DNA of 64,000 bases from a virus: IMG/VR virus record IMGVR_UViG_3300044452_000161. The stretch is one strand, 5' to 3'. Shown piece by piece: positions 18,604 to 21,052 of the stretch. The position numbers and the translations under genes were made by a program. The notes under the pieces are model-generated. The model searched no databases. It was given only the letters and a program-made list of their open reading frames with translations, and was not told the DNA's origin. How positions within the stretch are numbered: position 1 is the stretch's first letter; each line of letters starts with the position of its first letter.

Positions 18604-18749
18604 ATTTTTTGCCGGAGCACGGCGCATCAACTGACGCGCATTCCTTCTCGGATGTAAGTCGCGTCAACTTTTCAGATATACGTCAAAGCGTATATTCATC
18701 AGTTATACGCTTCAGCGTATGGAGCTTTATGATCCGTAACACATAATCG

Positions 18750-19253
18750 ATGTTTATGTGTTATCGACCATAAAACTATGGAATTCCCTTCGGGGAATGG
18801 GCTGTATGAGGTCCTTAGAATATGACCGGGTGACCGGAGAAAAGGGAAAGGCGCTCCCCGCGTCCCCGCCTGAAAAGGTTCAATCATACAAACTCCGATC
18901 CACTTCGCCGGTAGCAGTGCCCCGTAGCGTTGTGTGTCCAGCCCCAACTGGGCAATAGTCGGTAAGTTTGGGAACCCGGTCCGAAAGGATAAGTGAAGCC
19001 TCAAAAGGGCGGATCGAAGTAGATTGGCGTCTACACCCTGTTCATGCCAGCCAAACGAACGATGAGGATTAAGGAGTAGATCGAACACAGTCCAACTGTT
19101 CGCGCAGAAGGGCGAGAGATCATCATGAACGAGGAAGGGCCGACAAGGCCCCCATCCGTGAAATGACGTCGACTAGGCCGCAAGCCGAAAGACATAGATA
19201 CGTGTTGTATTCTTGGTCTAACAAGACTGGGAGCAACCGAGCCAGCACGTGTC
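18750..19253 (+). ncRNA. large structured ncRNA candidate (ROOL/GOLLD-class hypothesis)
   Basis: about 500 nt without credible plus-strand ORF, many hairpins, inside tRNA cluster. Confidence 0.5.
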
Positions 19254-19265
19254 AGGGGTTAAACT

Positions 19266-19340
19266 ACGTTAGTAGCTCATTTGGATAGAGCAACAGTCTG
19301 ATAAAACTGTGGGTAGTGGGTTCAATTCCCATCTTACGTC
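19266..19340 (+). tRNA. tRNA-Ile(GAT)-like with 8-nt anticodon loop (atypical or pseudo)
   Basis: ACAGT-CTGATAAA-ACTGT arm; acceptor with one T-T mismatch; no encoded CCA. Confidence 0.6.
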
Positions 19341-19344
19341 AAAA

Positions 19345-19811
19345 AGCAAAAGACTGGCTCGGTGTCGCGTGAAAGGTGATTAATGCCCGGCTCTTCGGAG
19401 AACTGGGTGGGTTGGAGGCCGCAAGCCAAAGACCTTTGTTCAAGATCAATTCGTAGATCGTTAGCGCGGTCGAACTGCTCGCAAGGCAGACGTGGAGAGA
19501 CAGGACGATTATCGCGACATGACAGGACTACAGCCTTGGTCCTCAAAAACGGCATCACTGAGTGGTACATTGGCACCCTTGACGGGGCCAACGTGGATAT
19601 CTCCTAACCAAGCCTGTAGCAGGGTCCTTGGATACGGGTAGGTAAAGCTATCTCATGGCGACGGTGTAATCTCAGCCGCTGCTACCCATAATCAGCTTTT
19701 TCTGGGGTGACCGGACGCAGGCTTTAGGCTCGTAACCGGGTCTGCGGTCCTATTCTCTCACAGGGCGAACCGGGCGGAGTGAGAGCCGCCCCCACTTATC
19801 CGGCCCCACCA
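19345..19811 (+). ncRNA. second large structured ncRNA candidate ending in CCCCACCA
   Basis: TGTCGCG/CGCGACA enclosing multiple hairpins; GGGG-(TGA)-CCGG pairs with terminal CCGGCCCC. Confidence 0.45.
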
Positions 19812-19849
19812 AAAGAAGCTGTTCAATGAAAGAGTTAAGGAGTGGAGAT

Positions 19850-20089
19850 ATGAAGGTACGACTTACTGTAACGGTCGATATAGAAGACCCAAATTACTAC
19901 CCTTTGGACGAAAATGGATGGGCCTGCGGCGATCCTATCGACAAATTGGATCGAGACGAGGTTGGACAGTATGTATCCGAAGCTATCCTGACTTGGGGTG
20001 GATCAGGACCTCCCCATGGTGTCTTCAATCCTTCGAACATCAACTCCGTCCGTGTACAAGGTACCAACTTCGACACAACGTATCAGTGA
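19850..20089 (+). CDS. hypothetical protein
   Basis: GGAG RBS before MKVRL. Confidence 0.7.
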   Translation: MKVRLTVTVDIEDPNYYPLDENGWACGDPIDKLDRDEVGQYVSEAILTWGGSGPPHGVFNPSNINSVRVQGTNFDTTYQ

Positions 20090-20100
20090 GGAAATCATCT

Positions 20101-20334
20101 ATGATCGACATCAAGCGCGCCGTCACAGGCGGCAGAAAAGTGGTTTTCTCTCATTATGCTGATGGAGACCTTTGGTATAAAACTGAGTTTGGTGAACAGT
20201 TTCCAGTACCGGTCAGCGATGCGGGAACAGCAACTTTTCACGCCAAAGACAAAGCACTCTTGTTCATGCGCTATATGCGTAAGTGGAACGAAAACACTAC
20301 GGCACAAACGATGGAACGTTTGGCCTGTGTCTGA
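20101..20334 (+). CDS. conserved-type phage hypothetical protein
   Basis: MIDIK start, GAGG RBS; LWYKTEFGEQFPVPV..G.ATF...DKA..FMRYMRK motif. Confidence 0.75.
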   Translation: MIDIKRAVTGGRKVVFSHYADGDLWYKTEFGEQFPVPVSDAGTATFHAKDKALLFMRYMRKWNENTTAQTMERLACV

Positions 20335-20344
20335 TCCCTTCGGG

Positions 20345-20416
20345 GATAAAACGCACGTATATCTACGGAGCTTGGATGATTTCTGGACCCGGGGGCGGTA
20401 CCCGGCGGCTCCACCA
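20345..20416 (+). ncRNA. ssrA: tmRNA acceptor piece (permuted two-piece gene); 5' end approximate
   Basis: T arm with GGCGGTA loop then CGGCTCC-A-CCA; pairs with GGGGCCG at 20511 giving G3-U70. Confidence 0.85.
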
Positions 20417-20510
20417 CGTGCACACTGTTCTCAAAACTGCCTTGGAAAGACACGCGAGACGATGCATGCCTCTCGTTTGTTCGCGGAAAAATCTACAGTG
20501 TGTACTTGAT

Positions 20511-20720
20511 GGGGCCGATATAGGATCGACAGGGTTTGAAGGGAAAGTGGCGTGTCGGTGAGAAACCACCGTTATCGGTTCAAAAACCATAGTTGCAAAT
20601 GTAAACGCAGCACCATCGGAGATGGCACTTGCAGCCTAACGCTTGTCGTTACGCTGCCTGAAAGCTTCCCTCCATTGGGCTTCCCGGCGTGCCTAGAAAC
20701 AGAAACGTCGGACCAGTTTC
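20511..20720 (+). ncRNA. ssrA: tmRNA coding piece; tag (A)ANVNAAPSEMALAA* at 20595-20639; 3' end approximate
   Basis: GGGGCCGATATAGGATCGAC 5' end; ATAGTTGCA resume context; LAA terminus. Confidence 0.88.
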
Positions 20721-21052
20721 TCTAGAGGGTTGAGTTCCCCACACAATATGAGTGGTGCATCATCTTCGGTATCGCCGAAACCGCGTTTGACGCAGGTAAC
20801 CGCATACCCAGTTGAACGACAAGAATATTGGAAACCCAACTCGCCGCCGGGCGTGTGACTTAGCGGGTTACAAATAGGTATCACACACCTTTTCGAACGA
20901 GAAGCGGTGGTGGCCCCGTTGGTAGGGCCATCCTTGACTTGCCGCCTCGTCTCTCCGGCTCCGTGAGAGAACTTAGTGAACGGGCCGCGCACGTAGTATA
21001 ACTCCGAAACCGTCCGCAGCGAAATGTGGAGCCGGAGCCGTTACCGGCAGAT

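What the first reader, a model, noticed from the sequence alone, without database searches (positions are those of the whole stretch)
19345..19811. Second large structured RNA sharing a motif with the first and ending in a CCA-like terminus
Seen: AGGCCGCAAGCC(G)AAAGAC occurs at both 19175 and 19416. TGTCGCG/CGCGACA closes a multibranch domain, and GGAC-TACAG pairs with CTGTAG..GTCC. The last 110 nt are closed by GGGG-TGA-CCGG / CCGG-CCCC followed by ACCA, mimicking an acceptor end. Inference: 18750-19811 may be one approximately 1.06-kb GOLLD-like RNA with an internal tRNA, or two related RNAs.
Basis: partly seen in the sequence, partly recalled or inferred. Interest (0 to 1): 0.7.

Follow-up and report, generated by a model that had tools for sequence, protein, structure and literature searches.

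The report
GOLLD RNA back half plus orphan tail
Most of the flagged stretch is the conserved back half of one roughly 900-base GOLLD RNA, a known giant phage RNA that builds RNA-only cages, while the last 130 bases with the "CCA end" are an unconserved spacer element for which I found no support as a tRNA-like end.

Summary
Window 19341-19678 is the conserved 3' domain of a GOLLD RNA (Rfam RF02032). It matches the whole model at 19197-19678 with E 1.7e-34 and 126.5 bits, below the curated cut-off of 150. Together with 18781-19265 and an embedded tRNA (19266-19340) it forms one gene of about 900 nt. That gene is homologous end to end to GOLLD genes of the roseophages DSS3_MAL1, MD18, DSS3P8 and vB_RpoS-V10, which pass the cut-off. 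This scan had already identified the front half of the same gene as GOLLD.

- **Shared motif:** it occurs exactly at 19175 and 19416. Both copies are CGCAA-loop hairpins that covary across GOLLD homologues.
- **TGTCGCG/CGCGACA helix:** it is real, with 98% of cells paired and 7 of 7 pairs covarying.
- **GGAC-TACAG / CTGTAG..GTCC pairing:** it is not conserved. GGAC pairs locally instead, in a pseudoknot.
- **Tail (19679-19821):** it starts after GOLLD's last conserved hairpin, in a spacer that differs in every relative. I found no homologue anywhere, and it matches no tRNA or tmRNA model. Its 108-nt fold is no more stable than shuffled sequence. The ACCA becomes partly paired inside a longer 23-nt inverted repeat.

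This is a new member of a known family plus an orphan flank. In passing, 0 of 19 GOLLD-embedded tRNAs encode CCA, against 59 of 63 neighbouring free tRNAs.

The parts
18781..19265 (+). GOLLD 5' domain, outside the flagged range but part of the same gene. It ends with the motif-1 hairpin (19175-19193) and the first helix of the Rfam model (19197-19256).
   Evidence: blastn homology to MAL1, MD18, DSS3P8 and V10 starts at window 18781; 5-way alignment; Rfam model position 1 lies at 19197; the motif-1 stem 19176-78/19184-86 is 96% paired with covariation in 17 GOLLDs.
19266..19340 (+). tRNA embedded in the GOLLD linker. It has an 8-nt anticodon loop, encodes no 3' CCA, and runs straight into the 3' domain.
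   Evidence: Rfam tRNA 50.3 bits; ARAGORN reports an undetermined anticodon, gata; a linker tRNA sits at the same spot in 20 of the 28 loci listed; 0 of 19 distinct embedded tRNAs encode CCA.
19341..19678 (+). Conserved GOLLD 3' domain. It starts with the junction AAAAAGCAAAAGACTGGC (19341-58).
   Evidence: Rfam RF02032 E 1.7e-34; alignment of 25 GOLLD 3' domains; RNAalifold predicts 48 pairs, 37 with compensatory changes; helix coordinates mapped.
19362..19520 (+). Inside it lie hairpin 19385-19408, the motif-2 hairpin (outer stem 19409-13 / 19431-35, inner stem 19417-19 / 19425-27, loop CGCAA), helix 19436-41 / 19503-08, and hairpins 19456-71 and 19475-89.
19524..19553 (+). Pseudoknot-type element. 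AGGAC 19524-28 pairs with GUCCU 19539-43, and GCC 19533-35 in its loop pairs with GGC 19551-53 across an A-rich stretch.
19662..19678 (+). Terminal GOLLD hairpin CGGU-GUAAUCUCA-GCCG, the last conserved element and the end of the Rfam model.
   Evidence: TAATCTCAGCC is invariant in all 25 aligned sequences. GGTGTAATCTCAGCC was the bait for the IMG/VR loci, but DSS3P8/V10 and the Rfam consensus show the same element independently. The closing pair at 19662/19678 covaries. All GOLLD matches in other loci that pass the cut-off end at this point.
19679..19821 (+). Orphan tail. It has an inverted repeat 19693-19715 / 19799-19821 that includes the stem GGGG(UGA)CCGGA / UCCGGCCCC. This encloses three hairpins (19716-46, 19747-66, 19772-91). 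ACCA lies at 19808-11. The loops CUCUCAC (19755-61) and GUGAGAG (19779-85) are complementary.
   Evidence: Folds; inverted repeat; repeats of this quality number 0.8 per 64 kb in shuffles against 15 clusters counted by the same method in the window. No homologue found; no Rfam, tRNA or tmRNA match.
19850..20334 (+). Two small ORFs, 19850-20089 (P0001) and 20101-20334 (P0002), that fill the rest of the 645-nt spacer before the tmRNA gene (20324-20730).
   Evidence: Translations. P0002 matches PHROG 20427 (E 4.7e-25) and jumbo-phage proteins. P0001 has a single 56%-identical relative in a different coding context.

Best explanation
Positions 19341-19678 are the conserved 3' domain of a single GOLLD RNA gene that spans about 18781-19678 (roughly 900 nt). 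The gene lies in the tRNA/tmRNA island of a DSS3P8-like roseobacter phage. Its layout is a 5' domain, a linker carrying an embedded CCA-less tRNA (19266-19340), then the 3' domain.

The mechanism is inferred from homology and was not tested here. Cryo-EM of the GOLLD RNAs env-38 and Sag shows that copies of the RNA assemble through kissing loops and A-minor contacts into a closed RNA-only cage. The 3' domains form the ring, the 5' domains form the caps, and the linker with its tRNA faces the interior. The two copies of AGGCCGCAAGCC..AAAGAC are two instances of a CGCAA-loop hairpin module that GOLLD uses repeatedly.

The last 133-143 nt (19679-19821) are not part of GOLLD. They are a lineage-specific element closed by an inverted repeat, sitting in the hypervariable GOLLD-tmRNA spacer together with two small ORFs. 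No promoter or terminator was recognised there, so the tail is most likely transcribed by read-through. It is either a passenger of that insertion or, at most, an intercistronic processing or insulating stem. The ACCA is best read as coincidental rather than as a functional acceptor end.
For: Shown here:
- Rfam GOLLD matches its full model (positions 1-416) at 19197-19678, E 1.7e-34.
- Homologous loci score 150.7-176.8 bits in MAL1, MD18, DSS3P8, V10 and a metagenome contig.
- 16 IMG/VR loci pass the cut-off with 157.6-234.9 bits.
- blastn homology to four cultured roseophages is continuous over window 18781-19677, or 18781-19536 for DSS3P8 and V10, with the same tRNA, GOLLD, tmRNA, nucleotidyltransferase gene order.
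- RNAalifold gives 48 consensus pairs, 37 with compensatory changes.
- The closing helix is 98% paired, and both motif hairpins covary.
- The tail has no similarity to the spacers of relatives, to phage records, to 127 fetched loci or to other parts of the window.
- The only other copies are 100% identical contigs of the same phage.
- Spacer length after GOLLD differs in every lineage: about 58-84, about 210, about 160-170, about 255-285 and 645 nt.
- Some GOLLD loci place an intrinsic terminator 10-20 nt after the terminal hairpin (L033 and L101), so the RNA can end there.

From the literature: the cage architecture and the linker tRNA (bioRxiv 10.1101/2024.12.08.627333; PMC12990946).
Against: - The window's copy scores below Rfam's gathering cut-off (126.5 against 150).
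- No RNA data could be obtained, so the transcript ends, read-through into the tail, and cage formation by this particular RNA are all inferred.
- The inverted repeat closing the tail is rarer than chance for one given spot, at 0.8 per 64 kb in shuffles. The fold with flanks has z -2.1 on the + strand and -3.4 on the - strand. Some function for the tail therefore cannot be excluded.
- The tail's last 10 nt, GGCCCCACCA, equal the 3' end of the phage's tRNA-Val(GAC) and differ by one base from the tmRNA acceptor end.
Confidence: 0.8

Rival explanations
1. The tail is a tRNA-acceptor-like processing handle. The stem GGGG..CCCC plus ACCA would be recognised by RNase P, and perhaps by a CCA-adding or repair enzyme. 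Cleavage at its 5' side would release GOLLD with a defined 3' end. The downstream tRNA, pseudo-tRNA or minihelix seen in other GOLLD loci would do the same job there.
For: - All 26 free tRNA genes of this phage encode N-CCA.
- The tail ends with the same decamer as tRNA-Val(GAC).
- In 12 of the 28 loci listed (about 9 distinct ones) a tRNA starts 11-149 nt after the GOLLD end, and 7 of them are within 11-47 nt.
- DSS3P8 and V10 have a pseudo-tRNA ending UCCA that starts 18 nt after GOLLD (Rfam tRNA 39.5 bits; sequence).
- MAL1, MD18, DSS3P8 and L035 have a hairpin followed by ACCA in the same spacer.
Against: - Neither the Rfam tRNA and tmRNA models at E up to 10 on 181 nt nor ARAGORN at relaxed settings sees anything tRNA-like.
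- The 108-nt fold has z -0.74.
- With flanks the ACCA is partly paired.
- There is no significant similarity to any phage tRNA or to the tmRNA pieces.
- An unbiased count of 'stem then NCCA' after GOLLD gives 2 of 17 loci against 1.3 expected.
- A repeat of one tRNA-end decamer somewhere in the window is expected by chance: my estimate is about 0.12 per end over 27 ends.
- tRNAs near GOLLD are expected anyway in a tRNA island.
Confidence: 0.1
2. The tail is an RNase III-type intercistronic processing stem. The roughly 23-bp imperfect helix 19693-19715 / 19799-19821 would separate the stable GOLLD RNA from the downstream two-ORF message, as the hairpins between phage T7 early genes do.
For: - The inverted repeat has 23-nt arms and is 78% complementary, which is rarer than chance.
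- It sits exactly between a structured RNA and an ORF with a good ribosome-binding site (AAGGAG at 19837-42; sequence).
- No promoter-like or convincing terminator-like site lies between them, which argues for read-through transcription.
Against: There is no conservation and no RNA ends. The helix is interrupted by bulges. Fold z is only -2.1 on the + strand. The analogy with T7 rests on general knowledge, not on a test.
Confidence: 0.1
3. The locus yields two RNAs. Processing at the embedded tRNA by RNase P and 3' nucleases would cut the GOLLD precursor into a 5' RNA (to 19265) and a 3' RNA (from 19341), as the reader's 'two RNAs' alternative suggests.
For: The embedded element scores as a tRNA (50.3 bits). 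tRNAs are the natural substrates of RNase P and of 3' processing enzymes.
Against: - The Rfam family model itself spans the tRNA site.
- 0 of 19 embedded tRNAs encode CCA against 59 of 63 free neighbours, so they are a distinct class that looks unsuited for release as working tRNAs.
- The window's copy has an 8-nt anticodon loop.
- In Mycolicibacterium aubagnense the embedded pseudo-tRNA was not detected as a separate RNA (PMC6582537).
- Full-length GOLLD forms the cage with the linker inside (bioRxiv 10.1101/2024.12.08.627333).
Confidence: 0.08

Closest known systems
GOLLD RNA (Rfam RF02032; Weinberg et al. 2009; cryo-EM of env-38, PDB 9MEE, and of Streptococcus agalactiae GOLLD, PDB 9L0R/9LMF, as listed in PMC12990946)
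   Same: It matches the full Rfam model and shares the covarying helices and the terminal GGUGUAAUCUCAGCC hairpin. It has a variable 5' domain plus a conserved 3' domain, a tRNA in the linker, and a position in a phage tRNA island. env-38 is likewise marine and lies downstream of a tRNA-Met.
   Different: Its score is below the curated cut-off (126.5 against 150). The embedded tRNA has an 8-nt anticodon loop. Extra bases sit in the hairpin at 19601-19640. Oligomerisation of this particular RNA is untested.
GOLLD genes of the roseophages DSS3_MAL1 (MN602268), MD18 (MT270409), DSS3P8 (KT870145) and vB_RpoS-V10 (MH015255)
   Same: They are 67-71% identical over 756-897 nt. They have the same gene order: tRNA-Met, GOLLD, permuted tmRNA, nucleotidyltransferase. 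MAL1 and MD18 carry a tRNA at the same linker position.
   Different: Their spacer between GOLLD and tmRNA is 58-210 nt and unrelated to the window's 645-nt spacer. None has the tail or the two ORFs. GOLLD is not annotated in any of the four records.
ROOL RNA (Rfam RF03087)
   Same: It is a large ornate phage RNA in tRNA islands that also forms RNA-only cages.
   Different: Its sequence and fold are unrelated. No Rfam match appeared in the region even at E up to 10.
tRNA-like 3' processing modules such as MALAT1-mascRNA, and RNase P minihelix substrates
   Same: Only the outline proposed for the tail: a stem followed by ACCA directly 3' of a large stable RNA.
   Different: No tRNA-like fold is detectable, there is no conservation, and the ACCA is paired in the longer fold. 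This resemblance comes from general knowledge and is a lead, not a test.

Membership tests
GOLLD RNA (RF02032) | Covariance-model score at or above Rfam's gathering cut-off of 150 bits | tested here: not met
   126.5 bits, E 1.7e-34, full model 1-416. This is a curation cut-off rather than a biological feature. Homologous loci score 150.7-176.8 bits, and the shortfall sits in insertions and a few non-standard pairs.
GOLLD RNA (RF02032) | Homology to accepted members across the whole gene | tested here: met
   blastn finds 67-71% identity over window 18781-19677 to four phages whose loci pass the cut-off. An nhmmer profile of these sequences finds 26 further GOLLD loci, 16 of which were confirmed by Rfam at the cut-off.
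GOLLD RNA (RF02032) | Conserved secondary structure of the 3' domain supported by covariation | tested here: met
   48 consensus pairs, 37 compensatory. The closing helix is 98% paired with 7 of 7 pairs covarying. The motif-2 hairpin is 89% paired.
GOLLD RNA (RF02032) | Two-domain layout with a variable linker that can hold a tRNA, located in a phage tRNA cluster | tested here: met
   tRNA at 19266-19340 between the domains; 28 tRNA/tmRNA genes in the window; a linker tRNA in 20 of the 28 loci listed.
GOLLD RNA (RF02032) | Assembly into a closed homo-oligomeric cage | not testable with these tools
   Known for env-38 and Sag GOLLD only (bioRxiv 10.1101/2024.12.08.627333; PMC12990946).
tRNA or tRNA-like structure (RF00005), applied to the tail 19704-19811 | Cloverleaf recognised by a tRNA covariance model or by ARAGORN | tested here: not met
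   No tRNA-clan hit at E up to 10 in a 181-nt search. ARAGORN finds nothing even with introns allowed and lowered thresholds.
tmRNA tRNA-like domain, applied to the tail | Match to tmRNA models, or significant similarity to the phage's own tmRNA pieces | tested here: not met
   No tmRNA-family hit. Local alignments to the acceptor and coding pieces are not better than shuffles (p 0.15 and 0.08). Only the 11-nt end CGGC(C/U)CCACCA is shared.

The most novel reading that the evidence does not exclude
The tail is this phage's version of a general arrangement in which a tRNA, pseudo-tRNA or CCA-ended acceptor mimic placed directly after GOLLD serves as the RNase P handle that sets the 3' end of the cage-forming RNA, as mascRNA does for MALAT1. 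The embedded tRNA, which lacks CCA in all 19 cases examined, would be deliberately kept unprocessed inside the cage.
Probability: 0.1. Interest if true: 0.6.

Novelty: new member of a known kind. Interest (0 to 1): 0.3.

Why it matters
GOLLD is one of very few natural RNAs known to build closed RNA-only cages, and its function is still unknown. This copy adds little as a family member. It does show three things:
- Rfam's cut-off misses a genuine GOLLD.
- GOLLD is not annotated in the GenBank records of four cultured roseophages. Their hosts (Ruegeria pomeroyi DSS-3, Phaeobacter inhibens) are, to my knowledge, genetically tractable, which makes a usable experimental system.
- The conserved RNA ends at a fixed hairpin, after which each lineage differs.

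The side observation may matter more than the tail. Embedded tRNAs never encode CCA, while their free neighbours almost always do. This bears directly on the open question of whether the caged tRNA is cargo, scaffold or a stored precursor.

Tried and rejected
- **Homologues of the tail:** nhmmer and blastn-short against 123 loci and the window, blastn against 50,697 phage records, and an exact 20-mer search in IMG/VR all found nothing.
- **Closing-stem pattern in 185,579 prokaryote genomes:** three hits in high-GC genomes whose interiors are unrelated, so they are chance matches.
- **The neighbouring ORF P0001 as an anchor:** it led only to 100% identical contigs of the same phage and to one unrelated coding context.
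- **The nucleotidyltransferase as an anchor in IMG/VR:** no loci.
- **A clade-specific GOLLD pattern:** none in IMG/VR and one metagenome contig, L127. Its spacer is also unrelated.
- **Tail as a degenerate copy of a phage tRNA or of tmRNA pieces:** not better than shuffles.
- **'Stem followed by NCCA' as a recurrent feature after GOLLD:** not enriched, 2 of 17 loci against 1.3 expected.
- **Promoter or terminator in the tail:** no promoter-like site lies there. The only terminator-like site, at 19738-50, is weak.
- **The 21317 enzyme:** it is a Pol-beta-type nucleotidyltransferase (PHROG 388, E 2.3e-66; weak Pfam RlaP hit). It has no NCBIfam or PDB match. Nothing links it to CCA addition.

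Full report
**What is at the coordinates.** The window carries 27 tRNA genes and a permuted alphaproteobacterial tmRNA gene. It is related to the roseobacter phages DSS3_MAL1, MD18, DSS3P8 and vB_RpoS-V10, which are 146-150 kb long.

At Rfam's curated cut-offs nothing but the tRNA at 19266-19340 is reported in 18750-19811. A permissive scan then gives a full-length match of the GOLLD model (RF02032, model positions 1-416) at 19197-19678. The E-value is 1.7e-34 and the score 126.5 bits, against a cut-off of 150. The match begins before the tRNA and ends after it, and the tRNA sits in the model's unpaired linker.

The four cultured relatives have homologous loci that pass the cut-off, at 150.7-169.6 bits. 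A marine metagenome contig (L127) scores 176.8 bits. blastn homology to MAL1 and MD18 runs without a break over window 18781-19677. Gene order is the same in all: tRNA-Met, GOLLD, tmRNA, nucleotidyltransferase.

So the flagged "second RNA" is the back half of one GOLLD gene of about 900 nt. An earlier follow-up in this scan reached the same conclusion for the front half, and I confirmed it independently.

- **Shared motif.** It occurs exactly at 19175 and 19416 and nowhere else. Both copies are three-pair stems capped by a CGCAA loop and followed by an A-rich stretch.
  - Motif 2 is a hairpin of the Rfam consensus. On 25 GOLLD 3' domains it and its outer stem are 89% paired, with 7 of 8 pairs changing on both sides.
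  - Motif 1 lies 3 nt upstream of the Rfam model start but is also conserved. On 17 GOLLDs it is 96% paired with covariation.
  - CGCAAG is about nine times denser in the GOLLD gene than in the rest of the window.
  - The near-identity of the two copies is particular to this phage. In MAL1 the two stems differ. The motif is therefore a reused building block and does not point to two related RNAs.
- **TGTCGCG/CGCGACA.** This is the long-range helix that closes the multibranch part of the 3' domain. It is 98.2% paired, all seven pairs covary, and no shuffle or slid register comes close.
- **GGAC-TACAG with CTGTA..GTCC.** The complementarity is present in this sequence, but in homologues only 47% of cells pair, no better than controls. 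AGGAC (19524-28) pairs instead with the nearby GUCCU (19539-43), 90% paired with covariation. GCC in the loop of that hairpin pairs with GGC at 19551-53, giving a pseudoknot-type element.
- **Closing stem of the last 110 nt and the ACCA.** Both are there as described, and the fold is the minimum-energy structure of 19704-19811.

**Where GOLLD ends.** RNAalifold on the 25 sequences predicts 48 pairs, 37 with compensatory changes. The last is the closing pair of the terminal hairpin, at 19662/19678. Every GOLLD match in the other loci that passes the cut-off ends at the same point.

Some loci have a textbook intrinsic terminator 10-20 nt further on (L033 and L101). Others have a tRNA starting 11-47 nt further on. 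The conserved RNA thus ends at 19678, and the tail starts at 19679.

**The tail (19679-19821).** The spacer between GOLLD and tmRNA differs in every lineage:

| Lineage | Spacer after GOLLD |
|---|---|
| MAL1 | 58-84 nt |
| MD18 | about 210 nt |
| DSS3P8 / V10 | about 160-170 nt, with a pseudo-tRNA |
| L127 | about 255-285 nt |
| Window | 645 nt |

In the window the spacer holds the tail and two small ORFs. One of them, P0002, belongs to a phage protein family also found in jumbo phages.

The tail has no detectable homologue. I searched the relatives' spacers, phage records, the fetched loci and the rest of the window, IMG/VR and prokaryote genomes. The only other copies are identical contigs of the same phage, so covariation cannot be tested.

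No Rfam family, including tRNA and tmRNA, matches at E up to 10. ARAGORN finds nothing even at relaxed settings.

With the flanks the fold improves to z -2.1, or -3.4 on the opposite strand. The reason is a 23-nt inverted repeat (19693-19715 / 19799-19821) that extends the closing stem beyond the ACCA, which then becomes partly paired. Inverted repeats of that quality are rare in shuffles, at 0.8 per 64 kb, so the repeat itself is probably not an accident.

Inside it lie three hairpins. Two of their loops, CUCUCAC and GUGAGAG, are perfectly complementary.

**Is the ACCA an acceptor end?**

In favour:
- All 26 free tRNA genes of the phage encode N-CCA.
- The tail's last ten bases equal the 3' end of tRNA-Val(GAC) and differ by one base from the tmRNA acceptor end.
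- tRNAs or tRNA-like elements often follow GOLLD closely in other loci.

Against:
- The model searches are negative, as described above.
- There is no significant similarity to any phage tRNA or to the tmRNA pieces.
- An unbiased count of "stem followed by NCCA" after GOLLD gives 2 of 17 loci against 1.3 expected.
- One repeated tRNA-end decamer somewhere in a 64-kb window with 27 such ends is expected by chance (my estimate).

I rate the acceptor-handle reading at about 10% and the RNase III-stem reading at about 10%. The remainder goes to a passenger or otherwise undefined spacer element.

**How it most likely works.** By homology, this RNA should fold like the GOLLD RNAs solved by cryo-EM. 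In those, 3' domains form a ring and 5' domains form the caps of a closed 12- or 14-mer cage. The cage is held together by kissing loops and A-minor contacts, and the linker points inward (bioRxiv 10.1101/2024.12.08.627333; PMC12990946). This is established for env-38 and Sag GOLLD and inferred for the window. What the cage does is unknown.

**A side result.** In the GOLLD loci collected here, none of 19 distinct embedded tRNAs encodes a 3' CCA, while 59 of 63 free tRNAs in the same stretches do. The embedded tRNAs run straight into the conserved AAAA(N)GCAAAG junction.

This fits the published idea that the caged tRNA is kept from maturing (PMC12990946). It also fits the failure to detect the embedded pseudo-tRNA as a separate RNA in a mycobacterium (PMC6582537). 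I did not find this contrast stated in the papers I read.

**Verdict.** The region is a genuine but sub-threshold member of a known family, plus an orphan flank with no support as a CCA-ended RNA.

Noticed in passing
window 19266-19340; linker tRNAs in L001, L002, L005, L014, L015, L018, L033, L039, L050, L055, L057, L070, L072, L080, L084, L101, L116, L118: 0 of 19 distinct tRNAs embedded in GOLLD linkers encode a 3' CCA, against 59 of 63 free-standing tRNAs in the same stretches. In the window all 26 free tRNAs end in N-CCA and only the embedded one does not. Embedded tRNAs carry at least nine different anticodons.
   Followed up: partly
L001:2376-2399, L002:2376-2428 and 2490-2515, L003:2424-2452, L035:457-500 (- strand): Between GOLLD and the next gene, several relatives carry a hairpin directly followed by (C/T)TCACCATG(A/G). 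In DSS3P8/V10 and L035 the 7-bp stem would have G3.U70 and A73, the alanine identity set. The meaning is unknown, and the window lacks the motif.
   Followed up: partly
L003:2358-2428 and L004:2358-2428: DSS3P8 and V10 have an unannotated pseudo-tRNA starting 18 nt after the GOLLD end (Rfam tRNA 39.5 bits; ARAGORN does not call it). It has a shortened anticodon loop and an encoded UCCA end.
   Followed up: partly
window 19755-19761 and 19779-19785: The loops of two adjacent hairpins in the tail, CUCUCAC and GUGAGAG, are perfectly complementary over 7 nt. This could be a kissing interaction or an alternative hairpin.
   Followed up: no
L001, L002, L003, L004 (GenBank MN602268, MT270409, KT870145, MH015255): GOLLD is not annotated in any of the four cultured roseophage records. 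In MD18 a hypothetical minus-strand CDS (L002:2373-2558) is annotated across the GOLLD-tmRNA spacer, and tmRNA is annotated only in MAL1.
   Followed up: partly
window 20101-20334: The small ORF P0002 (77 aa, PHROG 20427) has 52-56% identical relatives in jumbo phages of Xanthomonas, Erwinia, Ralstonia, Serratia and Yersinia. Its 3' end overlaps the start of the tmRNA gene.
   Followed up: partly
window 18726-18774: A near-perfect hairpin (19 of 23 arm positions matching; ACACATAA.../...TTATGTGT) lies just upstream of the GOLLD 5' end. A promoter-like site sits at 18669-18696 and a terminator-like hairpin at 18709-18725.
   Followed up: no
L070:6278-6629 and L101:2259-2440: Unrelated IMG/VR phage contigs with GOLLD also carry tmRNA genes within a few kb, beta-type in L070 and permuted in L101. 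GOLLD and tmRNA therefore co-occur beyond the roseophage clade.
   Followed up: no
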